The notes under the pieces are model-generated. The model was not told the origin of the DNA. It saw only the letters and a list, made by a program, of their open reading frames with translations, and searched no databases. A stretch of 64,000 nt of DNA from a virus (lineage: Duplodnaviria; Heunggongvirae; Uroviricota; Caudoviricetes): the IMG/VR virus record IMGVR_UViG_3300022592_000245, positions 1 to 64,000 of that record; one strand, written 5' to 3'. The position numbers were made by a program, and so were the translations under genes. Shown here in pieces: positions 7,188 to 57,879 of this stretch. Position 1 is the first letter of the stretch; every line of letters begins with the position of its first letter.

Positions 7188-7399
7188 ACGTAGTAATAGA
7201 CAGCGGACAGTACAGAGCCGAAGTATGGGAGCCAATGACTCCGGGTTGGGAATTTAGAGAACCATACCCGGAAGAAGTCTATATAGAAATAAATCAGTGG
7301 TGCATGGATACACTTAAATACCATGCTCGCACAGCATATCATATATTTGATTTTAAAAATCAAAAGGATTTAGAATGGTTTCTCTTAAGGTGGTCGTAG
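7178..7399 (+). CDS. hypothetical small acidic protein
   Basis: 73-aa ORF that overlaps both neighbours. Confidence 0.3.
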   Translation: MDIDVVIDSGQYRAEVWEPMTPGWEFREPYPEEVYIEINQWCMDTLKYHARTAYHIFDFKNQKDLEWFLLRWS

Positions 7400-16029: not shown

Positions 16030-16578
16030 ATGACTTGGATAATTGATAAAACTTTTGAATTCTGTTATGGACACAGAGTTCATACACAAACACTAAATGG
16101 TGAATATGCAGCAGACTTAAAGTGTGCTTGCAGACATTTACACGGACACGAAGGCAAAATGCAGGTACATTTAACTGCGCCAACGTTAGACAATACAGGT
16201 ATGGTTACCGATTTTAGACATTTAGAATGGCTAAAGAAGTGGATCAACACTTATATTGACCATCAATTTATTATTGATAAAAACGATCCCCTATATGGAA
16301 AAATTATTGGGGATAGGGGCCTTGTTCCTGTTTATGTTCCAGATACTAATCACTGTGCTGGGTGGCATTTGGATCTATCGGGACTTGAAGCAAACACTCC
16401 AGAATATGAATATTTCGAAGGATTCATGGTTGTGGACTTTGTTCCAACAAGTGAAAAACTATCCGAATGGATGGCAGAACTTGTTGAAGCTAAAATGAAA
16501 AAGCTCAACGTACAAGTTGAAAGCATTGAATGGTGGGAAACTCCGAAGAGTCGTTCGGTGTTTTATACGGATAGATAA
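16030..16578 (+). CDS. queD: 6-pyruvoyl-tetrahydropterin synthase family (QueD-like 6-carboxy-tetrahydropterin synthase)
   Basis: CxxxHGH zinc motif (CRHLHGH). N-terminal FEFCYGHRVH. PTPS-like length. Confidence 0.7.
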   Translation: MTWIIDKTFEFCYGHRVHTQTLNGEYAADLKCACRHLHGHEGKMQVHLTAPTLDNTGMVTDFRHLEWLKKWINTYIDHQFIIDKNDPLYGKIIGDRGLVPVYVPDTNHCAGWHLDLSGLEANTPEYEYFEGFMVVDFVPTSEKLSEWMAELVEAKMKKLNVQVESIEWWETPKSRSVFYTDR

Positions 16579-16709: not shown

Positions 16710-16860
16710 GTATTGGAAACTTTGGGCTAAAGCATTAGGCGAAAAATCAGGCAAAACGGACGAGGAATCGGACCGTATTGCTTGCATTCGGACTGCAATT
16801 GTGTTAACATACGTTATAACAAATTTTTTTATAATCGCAGGCGTCATAAGGCATTGGTAA
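16696..16860 (+). CDS. small membrane ORF (54 aa), unannotated
   Basis: MIKNKYWKLWAKALGEKSGKTDEESDRIACIRTAIVLTYVITNFFIIAGVIRHW. Its stop overlaps the uvdE ATG (taATGg). Confidence 0.25.
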   Translation: MIKNKYWKLWAKALGEKSGKTDEESDRIACIRTAIVLTYVITNFFIIAGVIRHW

Positions 16861-18645: not shown

Positions 18646-29272
<10,627 letters not shown>

Positions 29273-29273
<1 letters not shown>

Positions 29274-32573: not shown

Positions 32574-35500
32574 ATGACAATGCAACCATTTAAGATTCAA
32601 AGCCCGACACTAAGCATAAACGGTGTTAACATCGATACCAGTGCTCAGGGCAAACTGGTTATTCCAGGTGTTACCCGTGCTGGTACCAGTGTAGCTATCG
32701 AAGTTAACGATACTGGCGACCAAACACACAGTTGGGGAGTAGGTGCCGATTATACACAACTTGTTATCATTGATGGATACCAGTTTGCGGTATTAAACGG
32801 CAATGTAGTAAGCCCAATAGTAGGATGGGAAGTGGCAACGTATGCGGCTAATGCTATTGATGGTGAAGGATACATTGACGGTATTAGCGTAGTAACAGGC
32901 GGTGCTGGTTATACTGGCGAAGCAGTTACTTACTCACAAACTATGTGGGCAACATACGCACCTATGTCTGACCCTATTGCTAACTTTGGTGCAGGGGCTT
33001 GGTTACAGATTCCATTTGCAGTACGTTGCGGCGCTGGCGAGATTCAAAGTGAATTTGGTAGCGGCAGTGGAAGTGGCCTAGTACAGAGATCAGTTAACTA
33101 CCCTTACGGTGAAAGTGGTGACACAGCCGGCACAATGGCTTTAGACCCAAGTGGCAACGTTTATGTTTGTACAGCAGATTGGGCCGATGCCGCACAAACA
33201 TTCGAAGTAGATACTGGGGAAGATTATCTAGCTGGCCAAGCCGCCGGCGACATTGTGTTTAGCATTCCACAATCTGTATACACTAACCTAGCAAGCATTA
33301 TTAATACACAAAATCCAGGCGATTGGACTATTACGTGTTCTCTAGATGATGCCGTTGGAACGTTTGCTGTCAATAGCATTAGTACCTGGAGCTTTAGCTC
33401 AGGTGATTTTAATGGACAACAAGGTTGGGCATTTAACGTTGGAACATTAGGCATCAACTACCCAACAATCAACGAATCTGTACCCGCTGGTACAACTATC
33501 ACTCTAAATTATACAGGCGTACAGCCTGCTATCTGGACACAGTCTAATCTTGGACGCTTATCTGTTGACAATCAAATCCTTACCAGCAGACCGGATCTTA
33601 TTGGTGGCGAAAGTGCTATAGGAGTGTTTAACAACAGTCTTGACATGTTTGTTCAAAGTAATCTAGATCACAGTTTTGCTGAAGTATGGCTACAGAATAG
33701 TGATACCAGTGCTCCAACTGCTAAAATCAATGTTAAGGCCGCAGGTCCAGACTATGGACCAGCAGGAGTACAGACTTGGCAGTTTGATGCTCAAGGTGGA
33801 CTAACATTCCCTGACAACACAGTACAGTCAACAGCCTACACTGGACAAAGTGGATCGAGTGCTGGCGAGCTTTATATATTTGTCAATGCTGATGGCACAG
33901 TCATTACATCAACGGATGGTATCACATGGGGACAACCTCAAGCAAGTGGTGTTCCTGGTTGTGGCAACGATTCAGGCCCGGGTACACAAGGCGGCATAGG
34001 TAAAGCAGAAGTACACGGCGGAGTTATTGTTTACACACGATCAGACATTGGCCTTGACACCATCACTCCACAAACAGGCATGTACTATTCAACTGTAATC
34101 GGCACAGCAACTCTGTGTGCTGGCACTGACTCATTCTTTGGTGACGATTTATTCTGGAATGAAGTACATTACTTTAACGCAACAGCACGTTGGGTAGCGG
34201 TTGGTTTTGCTCAAGGTACAACAATGTATCCAGTAGTGGCACACAGTTTGAACGGTATCAGTTGGACAGTGGTTCCGGCCAATAGTTCATTCTTATACGG
34301 TTACCTAGATGGCTATAGCGCACAGTTTACTGATGTTGTTTACAACGCTGTTTCAAGTCAGTATGTTATTTCCGCTATTCGCACAACACAAGGTCCAGCA
34401 TACGGTGGTATGTTTGTAACCAGCGACATCACAACTGCTATAGATGGCACTAACTGGGTTGATGTTAATATTAACGGTTGGCGTCTTGCCTATTTCCCAC
34501 AGGTTTTCTGGGGAGGCGAAACTGGCCTAGTATTTGTTGTCAATCAAAAGGATGATGGTACATTTGGCTTGTGGGAAGCTACTCCGACTTTTATTAACCC
34601 TACTAACTTGTTGGATCCGGGTAACTGGCAAGCAGAATACGGCTACGGCACTACTAACGGTTGGTTAGAAAGTGCGCTGTTTGATAACTTAGGCTATGTA
34701 CCTGACATCTCGGAGATTGCCTACAACAACAACGTGTTTATTGTTACCACAAGAGATGGACAAGTATTTGTACAACCTGATGCTCCAGCAACTTATGTAA
34801 CAATACCAAGCCCATATACAGCTAACATTAATGATATTGTTCGCAATGCTTCTGGCGATGGATTGCCAACAACTATTCACTTTACTGACATTACTGGTAA
34901 TGGACCAGCCGCAGACGGTGAGAAGATTGTTATCTCGGGAGTAACAAGCCATACAGAAAACAACAGTACTACTCAACAAAGTTACAACGGCACTTACTAT
35001 ATTAAGAACAATGGAGGTTCATACGAGCTATACCTAGATTCAGCATTAACTCAACCGTGGGATACCAGCACCTACTGGCCAGTCGATACTAATACTGGTA
35101 TATTGACTTGGAGTCACGGCGAGTGGCTAGATGCCGCGGGCGTTAGTGGCGACTTTGTGTTTGTGGGCAACGATGACGAACAAGTATTCCGTAGTGCTGA
35201 CTTTGGTTTAACTTGGACACAAGAACAAGATGTAACTGGTCGTTACTTTAATGACTTTGCTTACGGTACATTTGGCAGTGGCGGCGCATTAAACGAACTA
35301 GTAAACGGTGCTCATACTGTTGTACTAGATGCTGATGGCAACTTAAATCTTGAGGATGGCGCCCACTCAGGTCAATATGGTCGTATACAAAGCCTAAACG
35401 GTTATCCAACTCTAATGGCCTACGGTGGCGAAAGTGGCCACGGTGGTCCAGAACTAGACTGGATGGACAGCAATAACCCTACAGCAGATTTCTTTAGCAA

Positions 35501-38435
35501 CACAGCATTGCGTCATTCAATGTACTTAAACAACCAACAAGGGTTGTATATTGGCATGAACGAAAACCAAAAGTCGGGTGTATTCTCAGGCAACTGGAGC
35601 TTTAATACAGATGGCTCATTATCATTGCCACAAGAAAGTATTGTCGGCGGCTTTGTTAACCAAAGTGGTAATGGCAGTTGGAATGAATGGGCAACAGCCG
35701 GTGTTACAGGACCAAACGGTACTGTATATGTTGTAGGCGGCGAAAGCAATATAAATCAATCATTTGTTACAGCGGTAGATAAAACTGGTACTACGTTATG
35801 GAGAAAGAGTATCAACACAATAGATGTTGGTGACGGCTCTGGTAGTAACAATCCACAAGAGATGAACATCAAGTTTGATGTTGCTCATAATCTATTATAT
35901 GCTGGTTTTGACTTTGGTAACAGTACAGGTGTGTTTAGTTTAATACCTGCTACAGGTGTGGTAGATAGCTCTTGGGTTATTAAAGGCGGCACTGATGGTA
36001 ATCAAACTATCTCGCAAAAATCGTTTACTGTTGATGCTGTTGGTGATCCTATTATTGCTGGACACTCGTTCGGTGCTTACAATACCCGTAACGGCTTAAC
36101 TGCTACTAAAGGTACAGACGGCAACGGCTATGATTACATAAGTGTTGCCTTAAGCGATATCACTAGTGATGTTGCATCTATGAACAGCAACTGGGATGTT
36201 GACATTGACGGTACAGGCAACTGGTACGACTCAGACTTTAATACTTACTACGGCATTCCAGCAGTATACAACGGTACTCCGGGTGTGGGCGGTCTTCAGT
36301 TATCAACAGAAGGTACTGCGTACAGCGCAGGCGCAGTAACTGGCTACGACGGGTATGGTATAGACATAGATTCTAGCTTATGGACCGATCAAACTAAGTT
36401 AGGTAATGTACTAGCCCAGACTAACGGTGTACACTTTACAGTTGTGATTGGCAGTTTAACTCCAGGTGTTGATCAAACAGTATATACATTTAGTAGCGTT
36501 AGCGATTGGAGTGTGCCTACTGGTACAGTTTATCACATGGATGGTAACTGGACACTAGTATCCGGAACTGGTACAGTTACTACTTCTACTGACATTATGT
36601 CTATTACCTACGGTTCAGTAATGAAACTTAACCTGTATACATATATCAATCGTAGTAACGGTTTAATATATGATGATGGCGTTAATCTTTTTGATTATGG
36701 AACAAACTATCAAGCTGGCGACACACTGAAGATTCCTGGTAGTTTACTAGGTGGACGTGATGGTGGCTGGATCATGTCAGCTCAGCCTAACGGTACAAAC
36801 GTTAATGGGGACGTATTATTCTTTAGCATAGCGGCTTATCCAACATTGGGAACCGATATTCCAGCTGGTACATTGTTTAGATACCAAGGTGTAAACCATC
36901 TAAATCAAACAGTTGTATCAGTTGTGGACAACGGCGAGGGTGATTGGTTTGTAACTATCACTGGTGGATTATCATCATATGATACTGTAGACTTCTTTGC
37001 TGGTAACGACTATCAGTTTACATGGCAAGGTAGCTACATTTCAGAAGGCCAGTGGCTTCCAGCAGAAGCTGTACGTTTATCAGTGAATCAAACAATCACT
37101 GCACAGATTACATATAACGTAAGAAGTCCCGAAGGACAACAGGCGTTTGTATGGACTCCTAACTGGTCACATACTTACGGTTCAACAAACTATGATGAAT
37201 ACTTCAATGATGTAGCCTATGATGCGGTTAACGATCGAGTACTTGTTACTGGTTATTTCCAGCAAAACGGTAGTGATAGCGAACTTTTAGTCATGTCCCT
37301 GGACAATGCCAATAGCGGTGCTACTATATGGCAAAAGTTTGTCGGAGATAACAACATCGGTAACTATGGTTATAGTAGCAGTATTGATGTTGACAGTAGT
37401 GGCAACGTGTTTACCATTGGTACAAACGACAACGGCCAAGCAATGATTACCAAACAGAACGGTCTAGATGGTTCAATCACGTGGCAGTCTGTACAAACTG
37501 ATCACAACAACTGGAACTATGACCCACAAGGCCGAGTAGACGCAAATGGTGATGTTTATTTTGGCAGAGTATATTACGACAACCGTGTGAATCACTATGT
37601 ACTTGGCCTTACCAAACTCAACAGCGGCAATGGTACCTTAGCATGGTCAAGAAGAATCACTAACATTCAAGGCTACTGGATGTTTGATGGTTGGGATACA
37701 TTCCAACAGGCCATCAGCATTGGTGATGGACAGATACAATGGAGTGGATATGTAAGTGACATCAACAACGACTACAATGATGCCATTACTGTTAGCTTGC
37801 CACTAGACGGTAGCGGCATTGGTACATACGGACGTTGGATTGTAGAAGACGATACCAATACTGCTATACTGTCAGGTAACGATAGCTATCAGATAACTCC
37901 ACCGGTTCCATACGTGGCAACTGATGCTATTACATTCACACTATCCAGCCCAACTATCAACGTAAGTGATGTCAGTGCCGCTGTTATCACTAGAAATAAC
38001 ATCGAGTTGGGCGGTGGATCGATTGTATTTGCCGATGGTAGCGATATTACACAAGCTGGTATTAGTAGAGCACTGACAGATAAGGGTGATAACACTACCT
38101 ACTTGAACTTTGAACACAATGGCAAGTTTATCTACTTTAACGGTAATCAAGGCAGTTCAACCGTTCGTGTTCCGCAAAACAGCGACACCAAACTTCCGAT
38201 AGGATTTACAGTTAGCCTTGTAATAGACAACTTTGACGGTAGTAGTGTATATGTTAACACAAGTAACGATACCAGTAACGGGTTACATGTCAGTGCTGTG
38301 GGATTCAGTCAAACTTATAGCAATAATAACTGGTGGCGTCTTGGCAATGATGGAAACACTGGTATCTACACGCTAATGAAAGTTGATACCAATCGTTGGG
38401 TCCTAAGCGGTCCAAGCATACTAGACGACTATTAA
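32574..38435 (+). CDS. giant virion fibre/structural protein (1953 aa)
   Basis: Gly/Thr/Ser/Asn/Trp-rich beta-structure-like composition, in series with the other fibre genes. Confidence 0.65.
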   Translation: MTMQPFKIQSPTLSINGVNIDTSAQGKLVIPGVTRAGTSVAIEVNDTGDQTHSWGVGADYTQLVIIDGYQFAVLNGNVVSPIVGWEVATYAANAIDGEGYIDGISVVTGGAGYTGEAVTYSQTMWATYAPMSDPIANFGAGAWLQIPFAVRCGAGEIQSEFGSGSGSGLVQRSVNYPYGESGDTAGTMALDPSGNVYVCTADWADAAQTFEVDTGEDYLAGQAAGDIVFSIPQSVYTNLASIINTQNPGDWTITCSLDDAVGTFAVNSISTWSFSSGDFNGQQGWAFNVGTLGINYPTINESVPAGTTITLNYTGVQPAIWTQSNLGRLSVDNQILTSRPDLIGGESAIGVFNNSLDMFVQSNLDHSFAEVWLQNSDTSAPTAKINVKAAGPDYGPAGVQTWQFDAQGGLTFPDNTVQSTAYTGQSGSSAGELYIFVNADGTVITSTDGITWGQPQASGVPGCGNDSGPGTQGGIGKAEVHGGVIVYTRSDIGLDTITPQTGMYYSTVIGTATLCAGTDSFFGDDLFWNEVHYFNATARWVAVGFAQGTTMYPVVAHSLNGISWTVVPANSSFLYGYLDGYSAQFTDVVYNAVSSQYVISAIRTTQGPAYGGMFVTSDITTAIDGTNWVDVNINGWRLAYFPQVFWGGETGLVFVVNQKDDGTFGLWEATPTFINPTNLLDPGNWQAEYGYGTTNGWLESALFDNLGYVPDISEIAYNNNVFIVTTRDGQVFVQPDAPATYVTIPSPYTANINDIVRNASGDGLPTTIHFTDITGNGPAADGEKIVISGVTSHTENNSTTQQSYNGTYYIKNNGGSYELYLDSALTQPWDTSTYWPVDTNTGILTWSHGEWLDAAGVSGDFVFVGNDDEQVFRSADFGLTWTQEQDVTGRYFNDFAYGTFGSGGALNELVNGAHTVVLDADGNLNLEDGAHSGQYGRIQSLNGYPTLMAYGGESGHGGPELDWMDSNNPTADFFSNTALRHSMYLNNQQGLYIGMNENQKSGVFSGNWSFNTDGSLSLPQESIVGGFVNQSGNGSWNEWATAGVTGPNGTVYVVGGESNINQSFVTAVDKTGTTLWRKSINTIDVGDGSGSNNPQEMNIKFDVAHNLLYAGFDFGNSTGVFSLIPATGVVDSSWVIKGGTDGNQTISQKSFTVDAVGDPIIAGHSFGAYNTRNGLTATKGTDGNGYDYISVALSDITSDVASMNSNWDVDIDGTGNWYDSDFNTYYGIPAVYNGTPGVGGLQLSTEGTAYSAGAVTGYDGYGIDIDSSLWTDQTKLGNVLAQTNGVHFTVVIGSLTPGVDQTVYTFSSVSDWSVPTGTVYHMDGNWTLVSGTGTVTTSTDIMSITYGSVMKLNLYTYINRSNGLIYDDGVNLFDYGTNYQAGDTLKIPGSLLGGRDGGWIMSAQPNGTNVNGDVLFFSIAAYPTLGTDIPAGTLFRYQGVNHLNQTVVSVVDNGEGDWFVTITGGLSSYDTVDFFAGNDYQFTWQGSYISEGQWLPAEAVRLSVNQTITAQITYNVRSPEGQQAFVWTPNWSHTYGSTNYDEYFNDVAYDAVNDRVLVTGYFQQNGSDSELLVMSLDNANSGATIWQKFVGDNNIGNYGYSSSIDVDSSGNVFTIGTNDNGQAMITKQNGLDGSITWQSVQTDHNNWNYDPQGRVDANGDVYFGRVYYDNRVNHYVLGLTKLNSGNGTLAWSRRITNIQGYWMFDGWDTFQQAISIGDGQIQWSGYVSDINNDYNDAITVSLPLDGSGIGTYGRWIVEDDTNTAILSGNDSYQITPPVPYVATDAITFTLSSPTINVSDVSAAVITRNNIELGGGSIVFADGSDITQAGISRALTDKGDNTTYLNFEHNGKFIYFNGNQGSSTVRVPQNSDTKLPIGFTVSLVIDNFDGSSVYVNTSNDTSNGLHVSAVGFSQTYSNNNWWRLGNDGNTGIYTLMKVDTNRWVLSGPSILDDY

Positions 38436-40696: not shown

Positions 40697-41446
40697 ATGC
40701 CACAAAATAACTATCAATGGAAAAGAGATAAAGCAGATCCGCGTGATCATGCTTTTGCTCCAAGACTAACAACATTACCTACAAGTGTAGACTTACGTGC
40801 TAACTGTTCAGCTATCGAAGACCAAGGTAACTTAGGTTCATGTACTGGCAATGCCATTGCTGGTATTGTAGAATATCTATGCCGCAAAGCAAAACGATCT
40901 ACTGATGTCAGCAGACTCTTTATCTATTATCAAGAACGTGTATTAGAAGGAACTGTTAACTATGATAACGGTGCTTACATCCGCGATGGTATTAAAGCTG
41001 TAAACAAGATTGGTGTGCCTACTGAAACATTATGGCCATACACTATTAATAGATTTGCCTATCGCCCTAGTCAAGCTGCATACATTAATGCTGCTACACG
41101 CAAGGCAGTTGGTTATCAAAAGTGTGCTAACTTTGCCGCAGTTAAAGCTGCCTTGGCACAAGGTTATCCCGTTGTAGTCGGGTTCGATGTGTATGAAAGT
41201 TTTGAATCAGATGCAGTTGCAGCTACTGGTCAAATGCCTTATCCTAACAAAGCAACTGAACAACTACTAGGCGGTCATGCCGTAGCACTAGTCGGTTATA
41301 ATGACTCTACTGGTAAGTTCATTGCCCGTAACTCGTGGGGTACAAGCTGGGGCGATCATGGCTACTTCTACATGCCATACCAGGTAATCCAAGACACCTC
41401 AATGAGCGATGACTTCTGGATCATTACAAGTATTACTAACCCCTAA
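40697..41446 (+). CDS. papain-family (C1) cysteine peptidase
   Basis: DQGNLGSCTGNAIAG (catalytic Cys context QGxCGSCWAF-like), GGHAVALVGYND (His), NSWGTSWGDHGYFYMPY (Asn/Trp block). Confidence 0.75.
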   Translation: MPQNNYQWKRDKADPRDHAFAPRLTTLPTSVDLRANCSAIEDQGNLGSCTGNAIAGIVEYLCRKAKRSTDVSRLFIYYQERVLEGTVNYDNGAYIRDGIKAVNKIGVPTETLWPYTINRFAYRPSQAAYINAATRKAVGYQKCANFAAVKAALAQGYPVVVGFDVYESFESDAVAATGQMPYPNKATEQLLGGHAVALVGYNDSTGKFIARNSWGTSWGDHGYFYMPYQVIQDTSMSDDFWIITSITNP

Positions 41447-42029
41447 TACCCTGTTCTTTTAGTTTAACACAAGTATCACACTTTTTGCAAGGTGTGATAT
41501 TTTTTTCTGTGTAGGTAGGATGTCTACATGACCAAAACTTATCTCGTAAGCTAGTTGGCAAGCTGTCATATATTTCACGTTTGTTTAGATTGAGCACAGG
41601 ATAGATTTTCTCCACTGGCGTAAACGCCTGGAGTATTTTATTAGCACGAACACGGCGTTCTTCCAGTGCATGGTTCCCATCATTGGCCTGCATACCCATT
41701 GCCACTTTTACAATGTTGGGATTAGCAAAGCACACATATCCAGCAAAGAAGTTCATAGTGTCTGAATCAAACATGTATTGTTTATTGTAAACAACTGTGC
41801 CTATTTCGCTTTCACTGTATTCAAACTCGAACTTGAGTTCCTTTAGTTCTTTAAGAGCAATATCTACAGCCAGTGCTTCTGCTCGGTGTCTATTTTCAAT
41901 ATTCTTGTTATGAACATGATGTATGTGAATACGATAGTCCTTGTATTCAGGATCTGTTAATAGTTTGTAAACCATACCCAGGCTATCTAGGCCGCCTGAG
42001 TACATGGCTAGGATTGTTTTTTGTTCCAT
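41436..42029 (-). CDS. queC: QueC-like PP-loop ATPase (7-cyano-7-deazaguanine synthase family)
   Basis: N-terminal SGGxDS PP-loop (AMYSGGLDSLGM). C-terminal Cys cluster CRHPT…CKKCDTC, as in QueC zinc sites. Confidence 0.65.
   Translation of the reverse strand: MEQKTILAMYSGGLDSLGMVYKLLTDPEYKDYRIHIHHVHNKNIENRHRAEALAVDIALKELKELKFEFEYSESEIGTVVYNKQYMFDSDTMNFFAGYVCFANPNIVKVAMGMQANDGNHALEERRVRANKILQAFTPVEKIYPVLNLNKREIYDSLPTSLRDKFWSCRHPTYTEKNITPCKKCDTCVKLKEQGIRG
41474..41507 (+). terminator. rho-independent terminator (TATCACAC-loop-GTGTGATA followed by T7), embedded in the 3' coding region of the convergent queC-like gene
   Basis: Inverted repeat plus T-run immediately after the peptidase stop. 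Confidence 0.5.
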
Positions 42030-42466
42030 ATATAAAATGTATAAACCTCGTTAATGGGATGTTCTTCTGGTTGTGGTGTTAGTTCGTGTGCTTTTGGAAA
42101 GTAACAGGCATATTTTGTGGGCCAATTAGGATTAAGAAATGCACGAGCTATAAATCTGTTACAGTTTGCCAATACAATGGGCAACAATCGATGGGTAAAC
42201 TCCATGCCAAATGCCAATGCTCCATCAACTATAATTGTGTCCCAATGCGTATCTAAGTTGAACCAGTCTTTGTTCTTAATCTTAGGATCTGCGTATTTGG
42301 GCTCTAAATCCCATGCTTCAGTTGCAAGTGGTAGCAACAGCCGAGTACTGCCTAGTAACAATACACGCCCGGTACAATAGCTTTCAAATACCGAATAATC
42401 AGCATCATCGGGTGCTGCTGGCCATTTCAAGCTAGTCCAGTATTCTTTATCTGCGTATATATCCAT
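42008..42466 (-). CDS. hypothetical protein, co-oriented with and overlapping the queC-like start
   Basis: 152-aa ORF. Weak resemblance to a methyltransferase motif I (VLLLGSTR) only. Confidence 0.35.
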   Translation of the reverse strand: MDIYADKEYWTSLKWPAAPDDADYSVFESYCTGRVLLLGSTRLLLPLATEAWDLEPKYADPKIKNKDWFNLDTHWDTIIVDGALAFGMEFTHRLLPIVLANCNRFIARAFLNPNWPTKYACYFPKAHELTPQPEEHPINEVYTFYIWNKKQS

Positions 42467-42516
42467 GTGATATTTATTACTTGCAAACTAGCTAAATATA
42501 CTAAAGAGAGCGTATT

Positions 42517-43119
42517 ATGACTATACAAACAATTAATTTAGGTAGCTATGCAAACGACGGTACCGGCGACGACTTGCGTACCGCGTTTACTAAAGTAAAT
42601 GCTAATTTTGCACTATTGCAAGCTGATGTAACCGGTGCTGTTAATCTAGGCACAGGTGCTGGCATTTTTGCTGATAAAAATTCTACAAACTTAGAATTCA
42701 AATCAATAACAAGTATAGACGGCAGCATTGCTGTAACAGAAAGTTCCGAAACTATTGATCTTGCAGCAACACCTAGCATTGTGTATGACACTAATCCACA
42801 ATTAGGTGGCGACTTAGATTTACAAGAACATCGAATTTATAACGGTGATGCACAAACAACTGTTTACGGATTTGACATTCCGATGGTTACTGCATTAGTT
42901 CAACTATTAGTAGAATCAAATCAAATCAATTTAGATTTTAATGGTGGACAAGAAGATATCAGTGGATTTAGTCTTACAACCGGAGATTTTATGAATGGTG
43001 ATCCGAGAGCTGCTAATAAGGATCCGTCAAACGCTAATTTAGATTTTAACGGTACAGGAAACATTAACTTTTTAGATTCAGCTTCAACAAAATTAGATAT
43101 TGATTTTGGCACATTTTAA
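42517..43119 (+). CDS. fibre-associated protein sharing the conserved N-terminal anchor domain
   Basis: MTIQTINLGSYANDGTGDDLRTAFTKVNANFALLQ. Confidence 0.55.
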   Translation: MTIQTINLGSYANDGTGDDLRTAFTKVNANFALLQADVTGAVNLGTGAGIFADKNSTNLEFKSITSIDGSIAVTESSETIDLAATPSIVYDTNPQLGGDLDLQEHRIYNGDAQTTVYGFDIPMVTALVQLLVESNQINLDFNGGQEDISGFSLTTGDFMNGDPRAANKDPSNANLDFNGTGNINFLDSASTKLDIDFGTF

Positions 43120-46831: not shown

Positions 46832-47092
46832 ATGGCAATGAAAGAACAACAAAGACAAGTTTACCGCAGTATGCAGGGTAAAGAAGTAGATATGCATAAA
46901 CTTGTTATGCAAAACGAAATGACTGTTGCAGTGGGCAACGTAAAAGTTAATGCTCGCGGAGACGAACTAGGCCCAGGCGGACAAATTATCCGTAAGCGCG
47001 AAGAAGTTTTAGCTGCGGCTACTAATGCAGTACCTGCACAAAACAGTCAACGCAAAAACATCGACAATATGGACCCAGAAGGTAACGAATGA
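46832..47092 (+). CDS. hypothetical protein
   Basis: 86-aa ORF with a strong RBS (GAGGAG) upstream. Confidence 0.4.
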   Translation: MAMKEQQRQVYRSMQGKEVDMHKLVMQNEMTVAVGNVKVNARGDELGPGGQIIRKREEVLAAATNAVPAQNSQRKNIDNMDPEGNE

Positions 47093-47487
47093 GAGCACAA
47101 GCAAGTAAACTAAGGCCAATTCAATCTCATATCTTAGTTAGAGATATGAACTTTGCTGATCAACGAACGGCTAGTGGAATATATATCCCTAGCGATGACG
47201 GTAAGTCAGAGGGTGTTAAACCTCGTTGGGCTAGAGTATTTGCAATAGGTCCAGATCAAACCGAAGTTAAAGTCGGTGAATGGATCCTAGTAGAGCATGG
47301 TCGCTGGACACGAGGTTTAGAAGTAGAAGAAGACGACGGAACTAAGTTTACTATCTGGAGAGTTGATCCAAATGGCATCATGATGTCAGCAGATGAACGC
47401 CCAGCTGGTCCGGAGTTTGGACAATTTGTAAGTCCAGAACACGGTTCCGTTCATAACCCACAAGACTTTATTCAACCTAGACTGTAA
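47089..47487 (+). CDS. GroES/cpn10-like co-chaperonin
   Basis: LRPIQSHILVRDMNFADQRTASGIYIPS…VFAIGPD…VKVGEWILVE matches the cpn10 pattern (RPL.DRVLVK…T.sGI.lP…VvAvG.G…VkvGD.V). Confidence 0.55.
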   Translation: MRAQASKLRPIQSHILVRDMNFADQRTASGIYIPSDDGKSEGVKPRWARVFAIGPDQTEVKVGEWILVEHGRWTRGLEVEEDDGTKFTIWRVDPNGIMMSADERPAGPEFGQFVSPEHGSVHNPQDFIQPRL

Positions 47488-54215: not shown

Positions 54216-54244
54216 TTGACAGGTCCAATTAAATAGTGTACTAT
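54216..54244 (+). promoter_or_regulatory. consensus sigma70-like promoter TTGACA-17-TACTAT
   Basis: TTGACA at 54216-54221, 17-nt spacer, TACTAT at 54239-54244. This makes the track's ATG 54236 a non-start. Confidence 0.5.
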
Positions 54245-54269
54245 ACATTATTATTTGGACCTGTTCTTA

Positions 54270-55126
54270 TGACTGATTATTACAATATACTCGGTGTTAG
54301 CCCAAACGCTAGCCCAGACGAAATTAAAAAAGCCTACAGAAAATTGGCTAATCAGCATCACCCCGATAAAGGCGGCGATCAAGCCAAGTTTAAAGATATT
54401 AGCGTTGCATACGATACCTTAAGCGATGCTAACAAAAAAGCCGAATACGATCAAATGCGTATGGGCGGTGGTCGTCAACATCATTTTAATAGCGGCAATT
54501 TCCAAGACTTTGCAGATATTTTTGGCGGAGGGTTTGATCCCTTTGGATCAAGACCTGGCCCGTTCGGAGATATGTTTGGGAGAAGAATGCCTAAAAACAG
54601 AGATTTAAATATCCAGTGTCAGATTACTTTGCTCGATGCTTATCAAGGTAAGCAACTCGAAGCAAATTATACATTGCCAAGCGGTCGCCCACAGACTGTA
54701 ATTATAAATGTTCCACCAGGTGTAAGTCATGGCGAAACAATTCGATATAACGGGTTAGGCGATGACTCTGTTACAGGATTACCACGTGGTAATTTAAACG
54801 TTACAGTAATTGTAATGCCCGATCCATTGTTTACACGCAACGGTGACGACTTATACACTACAATCTTTATTAGCCCAATTGAAGCAATGATTGGTTGTCG
54901 TAAAAAAGTTAAATTTATTAATGGCTCTGAGAAGGAAATTGACATCAGACCCGGTATTGAAACTGGTGTAGAGTTTGCAAGTCCAGGACACGGCTTTGAT
55001 AATCCTCATACTGGCGGCAAAGGTAGATTTATTACTGTTATTAGTATAAGAACACCGAGCATTGTTGACCCGATTATTGTTCAAAAACTAAAAGACATTC
55101 AAGATGAAATTAGTAGTAAATCCTGA
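54270..55126 (+). CDS. DnaJ-like J-domain co-chaperone (no zinc-finger region)
   Basis: J domain DYYNILGVSPNASPDEIKKAYRKLANQHHPDKGG (HPD). DnaJ-like C-terminal beta domains. Confidence 0.7.
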
Positions 55127-55613
55127 TCCAATACTAAAACAGACAGCAGTCGAATGGGACTTTGCTGTAGATACTAACTCTGAAGAAGTAGAAGCTGAAA
55201 TGGTTTCTATTATGAAAACATTACACGGGCGTGGCTTAGCTGGCAATCAGGTTGGGCTTTTAAAGCGAGTATTCACAATACACCTCGATAACCATCCAGA
55301 ATTAAAAGAACCATTTGCAATGTTTAACCCAAAAGTTATTTCAGTAAATGGCGCTCACGAAGAAATGTTTGAAGAAGGATGTTTAAGTTTTCCAAATCTT
55401 TGGTTACAAGTTAAACGTCCAATGAGCATTACTTCAGAATACTTTGACAAAACTGGAAAATTGTGTATAATAGAACTAACTGGAATAGATGCCAGGTGCT
55501 TTTTACATGAGCTAGACCATTTAAATGGAACAGTTTTTACAGAAAAAGTTAGCCAAATGAAGCTATTACTAGCTCGCAAAAAACAAAGGAAAAATAATGG
55601 TAGAACCAAGTGA
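55104..55613 (+). CDS. def: peptide deformylase
   Basis: GLAGNQVG (motif 1), EGCLSFP (motif 2), HELDHLNG (motif 3, HExxH). Confidence 0.8.
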   Translation: MKLVVNPDPILKQTAVEWDFAVDTNSEEVEAEMVSIMKTLHGRGLAGNQVGLLKRVFTIHLDNHPELKEPFAMFNPKVISVNGAHEEMFEEGCLSFPNLWLQVKRPMSITSEYFDKTGKLCIIELTGIDARCFLHELDHLNGTVFTEKVSQMKLLLARKKQRKNNGRTK

Positions 55614-57879
55614 TAATTTACAAGCAGTATTCGAAAGTGCTATTGAAACTGCTAAAAAACTACACCACGAGTACTTAACAATAGAGCATTTGCTATTTGC
55701 TATGTTAGGGGAAGACTCGATGGCCGCTGCTATACGTGGCTACGGTTCTAATCCGTCTGATCTCAGACAAGCTCTTGCAGACTACTTACAAAATAAATGC
55801 GAAGAAATTACAGTTCCAGACGTTGTAGTTAAACCAAAAAAGACAAAAGCAATTGAACGTATTCTTAATCGTGCATTTACACAAGTTTTATTCAACGGTC
55901 GTCAAAAGATTGAACCGACAGATGTGTTTCTTGCTATGATGACAGAGAAACGCAGCTGGGCATTTTACTTTATTAGCCAAGCAAATATTGAAAAAGATAA
56001 GTTTGCTGACTATCTTAACCACAATGTCGAAGCCGAAGAAGGCGGAGAAGAAGAAAACCCACGTGGCGATAAAGCCCTTGCGCAATTTACAACTAACCTT
56101 AACGAAGCAGTTAAGAAAAACAAAATCGACCCTGTTATCGGTCGTGTGGACGAGCTAGAAAACATTGCGTTATCAATGGGCCGTCGTAGCAAGAACAACG
56201 TAATCCTTGTTGGTGATCCTGGTGTGGGAAAGACGGCAATAGCCGAAGGTCTTGCCTACAACATAGTTAAGGGCGCAGTTCCAGATTTCCTCAAGGATTA
56301 TACTGTATTCAACTTGGACATCAGTGCAATGTTGGCCGGTAGTAAATACCGCGGTGACTTTGAAGAACGATTCAAAGCAGTACTTAAAGGTTTAAGTAAA
56401 AAAGGTAAGACTGTGCTGTTCATCGACGAGGCCCACATGATCTCTGGCGCAGGATCTGCTAGCAACTCAGCTAACGATCTCGCTAATATGATGAAACCTG
56501 CTCTAAGCAAAGGCAACATTAAAGTTGTGGCCAGTACTACCTGGGAAGAATATCGTAAGCATTTTGAAAAGGATCGTGCATTGATGCGTCGTTTCCAACG
56601 CATTACAGTCGACGAGCCAACTACTGAAGTTACTTTACAGATTCTTAAAGGTATTAAGAAATATTATGAGCAACATCATAATGTTAAAATCAAAGACGAT
56701 GCACTAAACGCTGCTATCAAGCTGTCAGTTAAGTATCAGGCCGATAAGAAACTTCCAGATAAGGCTATTGACTTAATCGATCTAGCTTGCTCACGTTTTA
56801 ATTTGAAACTATCGGATGATCGCGTTGTAGGCGAAAACGAAATTCAATTCGAACTTAGTAAGATTGTTAACATTCCAGAAGAACAAGTTGCCGAAACAGA
56901 AAGTCAAAATCTTGCAACATTACAAGATAAGCTGTCAGCAGATGTGTTTGGACAGGATCTTGCTGTACAAGAAGTTGTTGACAAGATTATGGTTGCACAG
57001 GCTGGATTGAAACCTGAGAACAAGCCAATTGGTTCGTTTGTGTTCATGGGTCCAACTGGTTGTGGTAAGACTGAAACTGCTAAAGCATTGGCTAAGAATT
57101 TGGGTGTTAAATTGCTACGTTTTGATATGTCAGAGTATCAAGAGAAACATAGTATTTCTAAGCTAATTGGTAGCCCTCCGGGATACGTTGGCTTTGAAGA
57201 GAACGCTGGTTTGTTGATTACACAGGTTCAAGAGAATCCAAATGCTGTTTTGCTGTTTGATGAAGTTGAAAAGTCACATCCGGATGTATCAACTGTATTG
57301 TTGCAGATGATGGATAATGGTTTTATTACAGGATCAAATGGTAAACGTGCTGACTGTCGTCAACTTATCTTGATTTTAACTACTAATGCTGGTGCGCAGG
57401 CAGCAGAAAAGAATCAAATCGGATTCGGACAACAGGAAAAAGAATATAGCGACAAAGAGCTTAACAAATTCTTTACACCGGAGTTCCGTAATCGCTTAGA
57501 CGGTATTATTACCTTTAACAAGCTAGGCAAGGAAACAATGACTAAAGTTGTTAATAAATTCCTTGATGAAGTACGTGAGCAAGTTAAAGAGAAAGGTATT
57601 AAGATTAAAGCAGATAAAGATGCTATTACATGGCTTATCAATAAAGGCTTTGATCCTAAGATGGGTGCTCGTCCATTACATCGTGTTATCGACAAGGAAA
57701 TTAAACGTGATCTTGCTAAGATGATGTTGTTCGGTGATTTGAAGAGTGGTGGATGGTTAACTATTACTGTCGATAACGACAAGCTAGTGTTGGTTGCGAA
57801 ACCTAAAACACCAAAAGTACCATTGTTATCAATCGAAGGGTTAAATGATACTCTACAAGACAACCAATCGATTATTTAA
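55597..57879 (+). CDS. clpA: ClpA-type AAA+ unfoldase (two AAA modules, no ClpB middle domain)
   Basis: Clp_N-like N-terminus. Walker A VGDPGVGKTAIAEGLA and FMGPTGCGKTETAKALA. Confidence 0.85.
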   Translation: MVEPSDNLQAVFESAIETAKKLHHEYLTIEHLLFAMLGEDSMAAAIRGYGSNPSDLRQALADYLQNKCEEITVPDVVVKPKKTKAIERILNRAFTQVLFNGRQKIEPTDVFLAMMTEKRSWAFYFISQANIEKDKFADYLNHNVEAEEGGEEENPRGDKALAQFTTNLNEAVKKNKIDPVIGRVDELENIALSMGRRSKNNVILVGDPGVGKTAIAEGLAYNIVKGAVPDFLKDYTVFNLDISAMLAGSKYRGDFEERFKAVLKGLSKKGKTVLFIDEAHMISGAGSASNSANDLANMMKPALSKGNIKVVASTTWEEYRKHFEKDRALMRRFQRITVDEPTTEVTLQILKGIKKYYEQHHNVKIKDDALNAAIKLSVKYQADKKLPDKAIDLIDLACSRFNLKLSDDRVVGENEIQFELSKIVNIPEEQVAETESQNLATLQDKLSADVFGQDLAVQEVVDKIMVAQAGLKPENKPIGSFVFMGPTGCGKTETAKALAKNLGVKLLRFDMSEYQEKHSISKLIGSPPGYVGFEENAGLLITQVQENPNAVLLFDEVEKSHPDVSTVLLQMMDNGFITGSNGKRADCRQLILILTTNAGAQAAEKNQIGFGQQEKEYSDKELNKFFTPEFRNRLDGIITFNKLGKETMTKVVNKFLDEVREQVKEKGIKIKADKDAITWLINKGFDPKMGARPLHRVIDKEIKRDLAKMMLFGDLKSGGWLTITVDNDKLVLVAKPKTPKVPLLSIEGLNDTLQDNQSII

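What the first reader, a model, noticed from the sequence alone, without database searches (positions are those of the whole stretch)
41436..42466. Inverted two-gene islet (QueC-like PP-loop ATPase plus an unknown) inside the + strand fibre module. Together with QueD this implies 7-deazaguanine chemistry
A QueC-like gene (SGGLDS PP-loop, C-terminal Cys4 cluster) and an overlapping 152-aa unknown are the only - strand genes in about 27 kb of + strand fibre genes. A QueD/PTPS homolog (CRHLHGH) lies at 16030. QueC plus QueD in phages usually signals synthesis of preQ0 or related 7-deazaguanines for DNA hypermodification (the DpdA/Gat-QueC type) or for queuosine precursor supply. FolE, QueE and DpdA are not in this window and should lie elsewhere. 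The reverse-oriented insertion suggests recent acquisition.
Basis: partly seen in the sequence, partly recalled or inferred. Interest (0 to 1): 0.6.

Follow-up and report, generated by a model that had tools for sequence, protein, structure and literature searches.

The report
Divergent QueC-like enzyme with methyltransferase partner
The two reverse-strand genes are a conserved, ancient jumbo-phage cassette encoding a very divergent QueC-family ATP-dependent enzyme and a miniature methyltransferase that work together, and they are not good evidence that the phage makes preQ0 or 7-deazaguanine-modified DNA.

Summary
In detail: two overlapping minus-strand genes (41436-42029, 197 aa; 42008-42466, 152 aa) sit alone among plus-strand fibre genes, and a QueD-type PTPS lies at 16030.

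- The 197-aa protein belongs to the QueC superfamily (PP-loop, Cys4 ribbon). It lacks all four residues shown by mutagenesis to be essential in E. coli QueC, and scores 15 bits against a cut-off of 150 for the QueC equivalog.
- It belongs to a distinct, undescribed clade (952 clusters at 50% identity) with its own near-invariant active-site signature. The clade occurs in jumbo phages and Burkholderiales.
- The inverted arrangement is ancestral (69 of 80 loci), not a recent acquisition.
- No FolE, QueE or DpdA lies in about 83 kb around the window. No FolE, QueD, QueE, canonical QueC or DpdA lies next to about 210 clade members. Neighbours instead are methyltransferases, glycosyltransferase operons, 2OG oxygenases or tRNA arrays.

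Most likely this is a two-enzyme adenylating and methylating tailoring module. Its substrate is unresolved; 7-carboxy-7-deazaguanine is possible but unproven.

The parts
41436..42029 (-). Divergent QueC-superfamily PP-loop ATP pyrophosphatase, 197 aa. The clade signature in window numbering is S11GGxD15S16, H37 H38, N43, R47, E51, D88, D117, K150, W166-S-C168-R169-x-P171, C181xxC184xxC187.
42008..42466 (-). Minimal class I SAM-methyltransferase-fold partner, 152 aa, upstream of the QueC-like gene and overlapping it by 22 nt. Motif I is degenerate (VLLLGST). Conserved D53 (end of beta2), D67-W68 (after beta3) and D81-G82 (end of beta4).
42467..42516 (-). 50-nt divergent intergenic region upstream of the cassette. 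It contains TATATTTAGC (42491-42500) followed by TAATAAATA. Similar elements recur upstream of the partner gene in related loci. It may be the cassette's promoter or translation-start region.
   Evidence: Sequence. Recurrence in L021, L075, L012, L051 and L036. The motif occurs once in the window against 0.72 expected, so it is not a general promoter motif. Sigma-70-like sites are not enriched (8 found vs 8.8 expected). The functional assignment is inference only.
16030..16578 (+). QueD-type PTPS (Cx3HGH motif, CRHLHGH). It is conserved in the lineage but not positionally or demonstrably functionally linked to the cassette.
   Evidence: Pfam PTPS 95 bits. NCBIfam QueD 59 vs cut-off 89.25. Sequence. 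43% identical to the QueD-like proteins of PA5oct and Campylobacter CP220-group phages. Two synteny types: type A without FolE/QueE, type B with them.

Best explanation
The islet is an ancestral, separately transcribed two-gene cassette of a PA5oct-related jumbo-phage lineage. It encodes a two-enzyme tailoring module.

Enzyme 1 is a member of a previously undescribed clade of the QueC / N-type ATP-pyrophosphatase superfamily. It keeps the ATP-binding PP-loop, the Mg/ATP aspartate, the conserved lysine and a QueC-type Cys4 (presumably zinc) ribbon. Its substrate pocket is remodelled.

Enzyme 2 is a stripped-down class I SAM-methyltransferase-fold protein, probably translationally coupled to enzyme 1.

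Inferred mechanism:
- Enzyme 1 uses ATP to adenylate a carboxyl or carbonyl oxygen of its substrate.
- A nitrogen nucleophile then displaces AMP to give an amide-type product.
- The partner methylates the same molecule.

The module is not a canonical preQ0 synthase and is not a marker of Dpd or Gat-QueC DNA hypermodification. The substrate is unresolved. By family precedent (QueC, Cap9, QatC, RoyL), 7-carboxy-7-deazaguanine is the leading single candidate, at roughly 0.3. A different carboxylate, such as a sugar acid, a tRNA nucleoside or a protein side chain, is collectively at least as likely.

Shown: gene reality, superfamily membership, loss of the canonical residues, clade-wide invariant signature, methyltransferase fold, gene linkage and one fusion, ancestral inversion, and absence of que genes nearby. 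Inferred: the chemistry, complex formation, SAM use and the substrate.
For: Superfamily membership with divergence:
- Pfam QueC only over residues 137-189 (23.5 bits); NCBIfam QueC 15 vs 150.3 bits.
- The narrow family profile finds no QueC, Cap9 or QatC in the PDB at E<=10, and hhalign against E. coli QueC gives 5% probability.
- The broad clade profile aligns end to end with QueC at 25-45 bits.

Residue test (against PMC13329287): SGGxDS, E42 (=E51), D126 (=D117), K165 (=K150) and the Cys4 are kept. Y35 maps to Ile or His, R99 to Ser or a variable residue, YPDC is deleted, and Y189 maps to Arg169.

Distinct clade: 952 clusters at 50% identity at E<=1e-3. The signature is kept at 98-100% in 55 Burkholderiales-type members that are only about 33% identical overall.

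Coupling between the two genes:
- 77 of 80 loci adjacent and overlapping.
- 9 of 16 more distant loci keep the partner within 0-4 kb in varied orientation.
- One fusion, P0287.
- A Methyltransf_11 gene overlapping by 4 nt in L263.
- A Methyltransf_17 gene next to P0368.

Ancestral inversion: 69 of 80 loci, including L003 with different flanks.

No que genes: none in the window plus about 19 kb of flanks or the 85 pair loci, and none in 80 metagenome and 44 genome loci.

Precedent for repurposed QueC homologues: PMC13329287, bioRxiv 10.1101/2025.04.06.647259 (Cap9), bioRxiv 10.64898/2026.04.15.718813 (RoyL). Hutinet et al. already suspected that singleton phage QueC-like proteins belong to another subfamily (PMC6884629).
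Against: - No biochemical data exist for any clade member.
- The residue mapping depends on low-identity profile alignments. Two alternative registers exist around the YxQxHxxE region.
- The AF2 models come from shallow alignments (pLDDT about 80), and I could not inspect the pocket in 3D.
- The partner lacks the glycine-rich GxGxG loop, so SAM binding is unproven. It could be a non-catalytic subunit or even the substrate.
- The partner is missing in 3 of 80 loci and in most distant clade members, so enzyme 1 can evidently work without it.
- The fusion is a single observation on one 2.2-kb contig.
- QatC also lacks the canonical motifs yet is proposed to use CDG, so motif loss does not exclude a 7-deazaguanine substrate.
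- The remaining ~260 kb of the phage genome could not be read and might encode FolE, QueE or DpdA.
Confidence: 0.6

Rival explanations
1. First reader's reading. The 197-aa protein is a functional QueC (preQ0 synthase). Together with the QueD-like PTPS and unseen FolE, QueE and DpdA, it supplies preQ0 or related bases for DNA hypermodification or for queuosine precursor supply.
For: PP-loop plus QueC-type Cys4 ribbon, with Pfam QueC just above threshold. PHROG 'QueC-like' at 3.4e-15. The PTPS has the QueD Cx3HGH motif and is 43% identical to the QueD-like proteins of Campylobacter CP220-group phages. Sister phages have FolE-QueE-QueD clusters. Most of the genome is unseen.
Against: - All four mutationally essential QueC residues are absent (PMC13329287).
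- NCBIfam QueC gives 15 vs 150.3 bits.
- There is no GATase domain.
- No FolE, QueE or DpdA was found in about 83 kb.
- The gene is unlinked to the PTPS.
- In phage 9g the pathway genes form one tight cluster.
- The FolE-QueE-QueD loci of sister phages lack this clade within the fetched flanks. L135 uses a separate, canonical-type QueC.
- Identical active sites occur in Burkholderiales glycosyltransferase operons with no que genes nearby.
Confidence: 0.08
2. Cap9/QatC-like protein conjugation. The enzyme ligates CDG or another carboxylate to an amine of a protein. The target would be either the adjacent MTase-fold protein, which has a conserved flexible N-terminal tail, or a virion or fibre protein encoded nearby.
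For: - The top Foldseek PDB hit is Cap9 in complex with its substrate.
- In both known systems the substrate is encoded next to the QueC-like gene (PMC13329287).
- The partner's residues 1-12 are predicted disordered, yet D6 and W10 are invariant.
- The cassette sits in the fibre module beside a papain-like peptidase and collagen-like or Laminin_G fibre genes.
- Neighbours of distant members include Asp/Arg hydroxylase-like and P4H-like 2OG oxygenases and TPR proteins.
Against: - No hit to PADLOC Cap9-type QueC or QatC models.
- No Cap10/TGT, CD-NTase, QatA or QatD neighbours.
- The partner's second residue is D, N or S rather than the Gly N-terminus used by CdnD and QatB.
- A fused enzyme-partner protein and replacement of the partner by ordinary Methyltransf_11 or Methyltransf_17 enzymes fit a co-enzyme better than a substrate.
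- The Cap9 residues that hold the deazaguanine (Tyr and Asp of YxDC, Arg of RN) are missing.
Confidence: 0.12
3. Glycan or sugar-acid tailoring. The enzyme amidates or otherwise activates a sugar carboxylate such as a uronic acid, and the partner O-methylates the sugar. This would decorate a glycoconjugate, possibly on the tail fibres.
For: - In 34 of 44 genome loci and about 37 of 80 metagenome loci the clade gene heads a Burkholderiales operon with a GT-B-like gene and two GT4 EPS-type glycosyltransferases.
- Those members have the same invariant active site as the phage protein.
- PF06508 already includes N-sugar amidotransferases (PMC13329287).
- The phage contig encodes a UDP-glucose/GDP-mannose dehydrogenase about 8 kb beyond the right end of the window (about 29 kb from the cassette).
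- L003 and L005 have glycosyltransferases within 4-8 kb of the pair.
Against: - The glycosyltransferase context comes from one bacterial order.
- No glycosyltransferase was found in the window.
- Glycosyltransferases and methyltransferases also decorate 7-deazapurines in huimycin-type clusters, so this context does not discriminate between substrates.
Confidence: 0.15
4. tRNA nucleoside modification. The enzyme adenylates a base in tRNA, as TilS, ThiI, TtuA and MnmA do, or makes a base for tRNA insertion. The methyltransferase adds a methyl at the same site.
For: - Clade members without the partner sit inside phage tRNA arrays. L084 lies between tRNA-Asn(GUU) and tRNA-Tyr(GUA) in a 14-tRNA array. 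L259/L260 lie between tRNA-Ser and tRNA-Arg.
- L276, L271 and L275 lie 50 to about 450 nt from tRNAs.
- P0368 contigs place the gene next to miaB-phoH-ybeY.
Against: - There are no tRNAs in the window or within 1 kb of the gene in any partner-carrying locus of the main lineage scanned.
- tRNA regions of large phages are known hot spots for accessory genes (own knowledge).
- The 197-aa protein has no recognisable RNA-binding domain such as THUMP, TRAM or the TilS C-terminal domains.
- The glycosyltransferase operons do not fit this reading.
Confidence: 0.12

Closest known systems
Canonical QueC (7-cyano-7-deazaguanine synthase; PF06508 cluster 1, TIGR00364; PDB 3BL5, 2PG3)
   Different: Y35, R99, Y131/YPDC and Y189 are not conserved. 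The first Cys spacer is x12 rather than x8. New invariant residues appear: H37, H38, N43, R47, D88, W166, R169 and P171. The protein is far below the equivalog cut-off. It is never next to queD or queE, whereas canonical queC has queD in its genomic neighbourhood in about a third of cases (32.6%; PMC13329287).
Cap9 (type IV CBASS QueC-like deazaguanylase; PDB 9NTO)
   Same: Minimal size (about 185-197 aa). Best Foldseek match (E 1.3e-6, TM 0.53-0.56). A QueC scaffold not used for preQ0 synthesis. Encoded next to a functionally coupled partner gene.
   Different: Cap9 keeps the canonical Y/FxQ..E, RN and YxDC residues that hold the 7-deazaguanine. This clade does not. No CD-NTase or Cap10 neighbours. 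No PADLOC hit. This is a phage cassette rather than a defence island.
QatC (QatABCD defence)
   Same: A QueC-family enzyme whose canonical substrate motifs have been replaced by family-specific ones while the PP-loop and a variant Cys ribbon are kept. This is the precedent for a 'divergent specialist'.
   Different: QatC is about 400 aa with N- and C-terminal extensions, and has different signature motifs (D(x)4R(x)7WxR, HP, C(x)19CGxCxxRR). It is linked to qatA, qatB and qatD. NCBIfam QatC gives 11.5 vs 280 bits, and there is no PADLOC hit.
RoyL-type deazapurine amide-bond synthetases and huimycin-type tailoring (HuiB QueC + HuiC SAM-MTase + HuiG glycosyltransferase)
   Same: QueC homologues that form amides with amines other than ammonia. 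A SAM-methyltransferase gene lies directly beside the QueC homologue. Glycosyltransferases (PF13439), PF08241/PF13649 methyltransferases, Asp/Asn beta-hydroxylases and dioxygenases act as tailoring partners. These are the same neighbour types seen around this clade.
   Different: Those clusters are actinomycete BGCs that always carry FolE, QueD and QueE beside the QueC homologue. RoyL retains Tyr41/His45/Glu48 and Arg104/Asn105/Asp132/Cys139. Neither feature holds here.
Singleton 'QueC-like' phage proteins (Escherichia phage ECML-4, Mycobacterium phage Muddy; PHROG 1550)
   Same: Phage-encoded QueC-like genes with no accompanying 7-deazaguanine pathway. Hutinet et al. 2019 judged them likely members of another N-type ATP-pyrophosphatase subfamily. 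The window protein matches PHROG 1550 at 3.4e-15.
   Different: I did not directly compare the window protein with those proteins. tblastn against 50,697 phage records found only Erwinia phage pEa_SNUABM_54, at 24% identity. No methyltransferase partnership was noted in the Hutinet et al. passage read here.

Membership tests
Canonical QueC (preQ0 synthase) | SGGxDS pyrophosphate-binding loop | tested here: met
   SGGLDS at residues 11-16. Invariant across the clade.
Canonical QueC (preQ0 synthase) | C(x)8CxxCxxC zinc motif | tested here: inconclusive
   Four invariant Cys are present, but as C-x12-C-x2-C-x2-C. Zinc binding was not testable.
Canonical QueC (preQ0 synthase) | YxQxHxxE motif (Y35 essential) | tested here: not met
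   Profile alignment maps Y35 to I44, or to H38 in the alternative register. Q37 and H39 are not conserved in the clade. Only E42 (=E51) is kept (PMC13329287).
Canonical QueC (preQ0 synthase) | VPxRN loop (R99 essential) | tested here: not met
   R99 aligns with S89, which is variable. A new invariant Asp88 sits in this loop.
Canonical QueC (preQ0 synthase) | YPDC motif (Y131 essential) and Y189 | tested here: not met
   YPDC falls in a roughly 7-residue deletion. D117 aligns with E. coli D126, not D133. Y189 aligns with the conserved R169. None of the 80 metagenomic clade members has YxDC.
Canonical QueC (preQ0 synthase) | Score above the curated equivalog threshold (TIGR00364) | tested here: not met
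   15 bits against a cut-off of 150.3. Pfam PF06508 gives 23.5 vs 22 bits, C-terminal 53 residues only.
Canonical QueC (preQ0 synthase) | Genomic linkage to queD or queE | tested here: not met
   25 kb from the PTPS in the window. No QueD, QueE or FolE within the fetched flanks (about ±5 to ±10 kb) in about 210 clade loci.
Canonical QueC (preQ0 synthase) | CDG to preQ0 activity / complementation of a queC deletion | not testable with these tools
   Requires experiment.
Dpd / Gat-QueC phage DNA 7-deazaguanine modification system | DpdA (TGT-like) together with FolE, QueD, QueE and QueC or Gat-QueC, usually clustered (PMC6884629) | tested here: not met
   Only a QueD-like gene is present in about 83 kb. 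There is no TGT Pfam hit and no hit to 9g DpdA, FolE or QueE seeds. There is no GATase domain. The rest of the genome was not readable.
Cap9 (type IV CBASS) | Retained canonical QueC core (Y/FxQ..E, RN, YxDC) and adjacency to CD-NTase and Cap10 | tested here: not met
   The motifs are absent. There is no PADLOC hit. The neighbours are fibre genes.
QatC (QatABCD) | About 400 aa with QatC-specific motifs, and qatA, qatB and qatD neighbours | tested here: not met
   197 aa. NCBIfam QatC 11.5 vs 280 bits. No PADLOC hit.
N-type ATP pyrophosphatase (PP-loop) superfamily | Rossmann-like alpha/beta fold with an N-terminal SGGxDS loop | tested here: met
Class I SAM-dependent methyltransferase (partner) | Seven-stranded Rossmann-like MTase fold | tested here: met
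Class I SAM-dependent methyltransferase (partner) | Glycine-rich motif I (GxGxG) and acidic residue at the end of beta2 for SAM binding | tested here: inconclusive
   Motif I is LLGST, with only G39 conserved. D53, D67 and D81-G82 are invariant at the expected positions. The Pfam-recognised Methyltransf_11 of L263 has the same LGAT variant. SAM binding was not testable.
QueD (PTPS-I) for the gene at 16030 | PTPS fold with the Cx3HGH motif, and a score above the QueD equivalog cut-off | tested here: inconclusive
   Pfam PTPS 95 bits and CRHLHGH present. TIGR03367 gives 59 vs 89.25 bits. Homologues cluster with FolE and QueE in sister phages, but not in the window's lineage.

The most novel reading that the evidence does not exclude
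The cassette represents a further functional branch of the QueC superfamily, shared by PA5oct-related jumbo phages and soil Burkholderiales. An adenylate-forming ligase with a unique HH / WSCRxP active site activates 7-carboxy-7-deazaguanine, drawn from host queuosine metabolism and boosted by the phage QueD. It joins CDG to a non-ammonia acceptor. The product is then methylated in phages or glycosylated in bacteria, giving a previously unknown 7-deazapurine derivative. That derivative would be used for tRNA, DNA or protein modification during infection.
Probability: 0.25. Interest if true: 0.8.

Novelty: new variant of a known kind. Interest (0 to 1): 0.5.

Why it matters
QueC homologues have recently been shown to do much more than make preQ0. 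Cap9 and QatC attach a deazaguanine to proteins, and RoyL attaches it to amino acids.

This cassette exposes another large and apparently uncharacterised clade: at least 950 clusters at 50% identity, with a near-invariant and distinctive active site shared by jumbo phages and Burkholderiales. It is routinely mis-annotated as '7-cyano-7-deazaguanine synthase' (source names).

There are two practical consequences. Counting such genes as evidence for 7-deazaguanine DNA modification in viromes would give false positives. The tight pairing with a miniature methyltransferase, and the glycosyltransferase operons in culturable-type bacteria, offer tractable routes to a possibly new ATP-dependent modification chemistry.

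Tried and rejected
- Near-identity DNA search in isolated phages found nothing. tblastn of the QueC-like protein gave a single 24% hit, in Erwinia phage pEa_SNUABM_54, with uninformative neighbours.
- Sequence searches of the PDB with the protein and with the narrow family profile gave only chance hits. hhalign of the narrow alignment against E. coli QueC aligned only the C-terminus.
- The search for related loci with the diverse alignment A3 failed because no conserved 7-10-mer was available. P0408 and P0263 have no relatives in IMG/VR.
- I tried to prove or disprove co-occurrence of QueE or FolE with the pair in one genome by cross-matching contig names. Only one contig is shared between the pair and PTPS sets.
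- CPt10's annotation was too vague to give QueE, QueC or DpdA seeds, so phage 9g was used instead.
- Walking off both window ends (about 10 kb each) found no que genes. The 319-aa radical-SAM gene on the left flank is not QueE.
- Promoter and terminator scans were no better than chance. The conserved upstream motif is unique in the window and therefore uninformative about regulatory class.
- No tRNA or Rfam element, including any preQ1 riboswitch, is in the window.
- The Methyltransf_17 neighbour of P0368 is not homologous to the window's partner and is absent from the glycosyltransferase-operon loci.
- I rejected an Fe-S sulfurtransferase function (LarE, TtuA or NcsA type). The only conserved cysteines are the four that align with the QueC zinc ribbon.
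Full report
**1. Observation.**

The two minus-strand ORFs exist exactly as described.
- ORF 41436..42029 is 197 aa. It has SGGLDS at residues 11-16 and Cys168-x12-Cys181-x2-Cys184-x2-Cys187.
- ORF 42008..42466 is 152 aa and overlaps the start of the first ORF by 22 nt.
- They are flanked by a plus-strand papain-family peptidase (40697..41446; Pfam Peptidase_C1 73 bits) and a gp9/10-like baseplate or fibre-connector gene (42517..43119).

Every other minus-strand ORF of at least 120 aa upstream of PhoH (49172) is nested in a longer plus-strand ORF. Both genes are real and under strong constraint. They have 983 and 773 homologous 90%-identity clusters, with 81% and 76% mean column identity and dozens of invariant columns. 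Base composition is unremarkable.

**2. What the 197-aa protein is.**

Library evidence for 'QueC' is thin:
- Pfam PF06508 gives 23.5 bits against a cut-off of 22, and only over residues 137-189.
- NCBIfam QueC (TIGR00364) gives 15 bits against 150.3.
- QatC gives 11.5 bits against 280.
- PHROG 1550 'QueC-like' gives 3.4e-15.
- There is no hit to PADLOC's Cap9-type QueC or QatC models.

A profile of close homologues finds no QueC, Cap9 or QatC in the PDB at E<=10. hhalign against E. coli QueC aligns only the C-terminal ribbon at 5% probability.

An exhaustive profile search of 1.84 billion representatives returned only 952 clusters at E<=1e-3, mostly 190-225 aa. So this is a bounded clade, not the edge of the huge canonical QueC family. 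A profile of 130 of these representatives does align end to end with E. coli, Pectobacterium and B. subtilis QueC at 25-45 bits. Superfamily membership is therefore real.

Libby et al. 2026 (PMC13329287) defined and mutationally validated the canonical signature. Y35 (YxQxHxxE), R99 (VPxRN), Y131 (YPDC) and Y189 are each essential. In the alignment:

| E. coli QueC | This clade |
|---|---|
| SGGxDS | kept |
| E42 | kept (E51) |
| D126 | kept (D117) |
| K165 | kept (K150) |
| Four Cys | kept, with x12 spacing instead of x8 |
| Y35 | Ile44, or His38 in an alternative register |
| R99 | a variable residue |
| YPDC loop | deleted |
| Y189 | conserved Arg169 |

The clade has its own near-invariant set instead: H37, H38, N43, R47, E51, D88, D117, K150, W166-S-C-R169-x-P171.

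In Cap9 the bound 7-deazaguanine is held by the Tyr and Asp of YxDC and the Arg of RN. RoyL, which ligates CDG to amino acids, also keeps these elements. Only QatC has lost them.

**3. What the 152-aa 'unknown' is.**

The glycine-rich loop is reduced to LLGST. Invariant D53, D67-W68 and D81-G82 occupy the positions of the ribose-binding, adenine-binding and post-beta4 motifs. It is the bare catalytic core with no substrate-binding lid.

**4. The two genes are a functional unit, and the inversion is old.**

- In 80 IMG/VR loci (58-80% identity) the partner lies immediately upstream and overlaps by 13-25 nt in 77.
- In 69 of the 80, both neighbouring genes are on the opposite strand.
- The same inverted pair is found where the flanking genes are different, as in L003 with a fatty-acid desaturase on one side and a PA14 protein on the other.
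- L261 (47% identity) has a clear partner homologue at 199 bits.
- Among 16 more distant phage-like metagenomic loci, 9 keep the partner within 0-4 kb. The arrangements vary: downstream on the same strand, or convergent.
- P0287 is a QueC-like-partner fusion in the opposite gene order (34% identity over 123 aa, E 9e-15). It is a single 2.2-kb contig.
- L263 (38% identity) has a 222-aa Pfam Methyltransf_11 gene overlapping the QueC-like start by 4 nt. It shares the LG[AS]T, DW and GDG motifs.
- P0368 contigs have a convergent Methyltransf_17 gene, unrelated in sequence to the partner.

The partner is absent in L014, L080 and L084, so it is not obligatory. 'Recent acquisition' is refuted.

**5. 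The QueD leg of the argument.**

The PTPS at 16030 is solid (95 bits) and has the QueD-type CRHLHGH motif. It falls below the QueD equivalog cut-off (59 vs 89.25 bits).

The nearest isolates are the PA5oct-group Pseudomonas jumbo phages (clamp loader 54% identical, QueD-like 43%). In PA5oct a GTP cyclohydrolase directly precedes QueD.

Eighty PTPS loci fall into two synteny types:
- Type A is the window's type (u399-u487-PTPS-UvdE), with no FolE or QueE within 10 kb.
- Type B has bona fide QueE in 33 loci and FolE in 17, clustered with the PTPS.

One type B locus, L135, also has a much more canonical QueC: Pfam 65.9 bits over the full length, an IPGRN loop, and C-x8-CxxCxxC spacing. The window's clade and its partner are absent from every type B locus within the fetched ±10 kb.

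The only contig seen in both the pair and PTPS sets places them about 170 kb apart. Neither QueE nor FolE occurs in the window, in about 19 kb of flanking sequence from near-identical contigs, or in the 85 pair loci. No TGT or DpdA was seen anywhere. By contrast, phage 9g clusters dpdA, folE, queD, gat-queC and queE within about 5 kb. [quoted passage not shown]

**6. Contexts across the clade.**

- (a) Methyltransferases, as described in section 4.
- (b) tRNA arrays. L084 sits between tRNA-Asn(GUU) and tRNA-Tyr(GUA) within 14 tRNAs. L259/L260 sit between tRNA-Ser and tRNA-Arg. L276, L271 and L275 lie 50 to about 450 nt from tRNAs. None of the partner-carrying loci of the main lineage scanned has a tRNA within 1 kb.
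- (c) High-GC Burkholderiales and other Betaproteobacteria. In 34 of 44 genome loci and about 37 of 80 metagenome loci, the gene heads an operon with a roughly 407-aa protein (weakly MJ1255/VC2487-type glycosyltransferase-like) and two GT4 EPS-type glycosyltransferases. All 55 high-GC members keep the clade's signature residues at 98-100%, despite about 33% overall identity to the window protein.
- (d) 2OG-Fe(II) oxygenases adjacent in L080, L088, L261 and L259, and TPR proteins in L089.
- (e) Tandem double-domain versions, P0375 and P0381.

None of these roughly 210 loci has a que gene in its flanks.

Methyltransferases (PF08241, PF13649), PF13439 glycosyltransferases, Asp/Asn beta-hydroxylases and dioxygenases are also the tailoring enzymes of actinomycete 7-deazapurine clusters such as huimycin. 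Those clusters always include FolE, QueD and QueE. These contexts are therefore compatible with a 7-deazapurine substrate but do not demonstrate one.

**7. Conclusion.**

The best-supported reading is a conserved two-enzyme module: an adenylate-forming QueC-superfamily ligase with a remodelled pocket, plus a minimal SAM-methyltransferase. It is transcribed independently of the surrounding fibre genes. It should not be annotated as preQ0 synthase, and it is not evidence for Dpd-type DNA hypermodification.

Rough odds for what it acts on:

| Candidate substrate | Probability |
|---|---|
| CDG | about 0.3 |
| Sugar acid | about 0.15 |
| tRNA base | about 0.12 |
| Protein | about 0.12 |

**Main limitations.**
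- Residue mapping rests on low-identity alignments.
- The structural models come from shallow alignments.
- ORF calling in fetched loci was simple.
- About 260 kb of the phage genome could not be read.

Noticed in passing
window 7375-12795 (and L255 1-1467, left of the window): A cluster of radical-SAM genes. Two are N-terminal-twitch radical-SAM proteins (NF033640; 346 and 78 bits). A 336-aa unknown follows, then a B12-binding radical-SAM resembling RiPP and other C- or P-methyltransferases. Two more radical-SAM genes lie on the minus strand just left of the window. The cluster sits between a 2OG-Fe(II) oxygenase and the PTPS, and looks like an unexplored modification pathway.
   Followed up: partly
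L084 1-2943; L259 800-8700; L271 1700-6100; L276 265-339: Members of the QueC-like clade that lack the methyltransferase partner are embedded in, or abut, phage tRNA gene arrays. In L084 the gene sits exactly between tRNA-Asn(GUU) and tRNA-Tyr(GUA), two of the four queuosine tRNAs.
   Followed up: partly
L319 4998-9168; L331 5004-9241; 34 of the genome loci L347-L390: A conserved Burkholderiales operon: QueC-like gene, then a roughly 407-aa GT-B-like protein, then two GT4 glycosyltransferases. The QueC-like active-site signature is identical to that of the phage protein.
   Followed up: partly
L111-L171 (type B PTPS loci), e.g. L165 2546-10552, L135 412-10549, L120 5145-14781: Sister jumbo-phage contigs carry a FolE-QueE-QueD module. 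L135 adds a canonical-type QueC and a myo-inositol-1-phosphate-synthase-like gene. L120 adds a SAM synthetase and a Methyltransf_11/25 gene. No TGT or DpdA was found in the genes scanned.
   Followed up: partly
window 40697-41446: A papain-family (Peptidase_C1, 73 bits) cysteine protease gene lies inside the fibre module, convergent with the QueC-like gene and overlapping it by 11 nt. It is conserved in related contigs (L001, L002, L005).
   Followed up: no
window 18975-29273 and 32574-38435: Giant fibre-like ORFs of 3432 aa and 1953 aa. Neighbouring fibre genes carry Laminin_G_3, He_PIG and faint collagen-repeat hits.
   Followed up: no
window 489-1340, 2036-2671, 47089-47487, 54236-57879: An unusually complete proteostasis set for a phage: SPFH/Band 7, ClpP, Cpn10, DnaJ, peptide deformylase and a 760-aa ClpA/ClpB-type double-AAA ATPase. 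The order is collinear with PA5oct (ClpX, ClpS, FtsH, DnaJ, ClpA).
   Followed up: no
L081 5799-5872; L275 1047-1121; L087 2700-3020: Related phage contigs encode tRNAs with a CUA anticodon, which are possible amber suppressors (ARAGORN calls them 'Pyl'). One contig encodes a tmRNA near the cassette.
   Followed up: no
P0375 (L089 7608-8858) and P0381: Tandem double-domain versions of the QueC-like protein. In P0375 the first copy has a degenerate PP-loop (SGGAHS) and no Cys ribbon, suggesting a pseudo-heterodimer. It lies next to TPR genes in an NCBI MAG.
   Followed up: no
L257 17606-21401 (about 8-12 kb right of the window's right end): The same phage contig encodes a UDP-glucose/GDP-mannose dehydrogenase-like protein and a tryptophan-halogenase-like protein downstream of its family-B DNA polymerase.
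   Followed up: no
window 16782-17879: A UvdE-type UV-damage endonuclease (135 bits) lies directly downstream of the PTPS. The arrangement is conserved in all type A loci.
   Followed up: no
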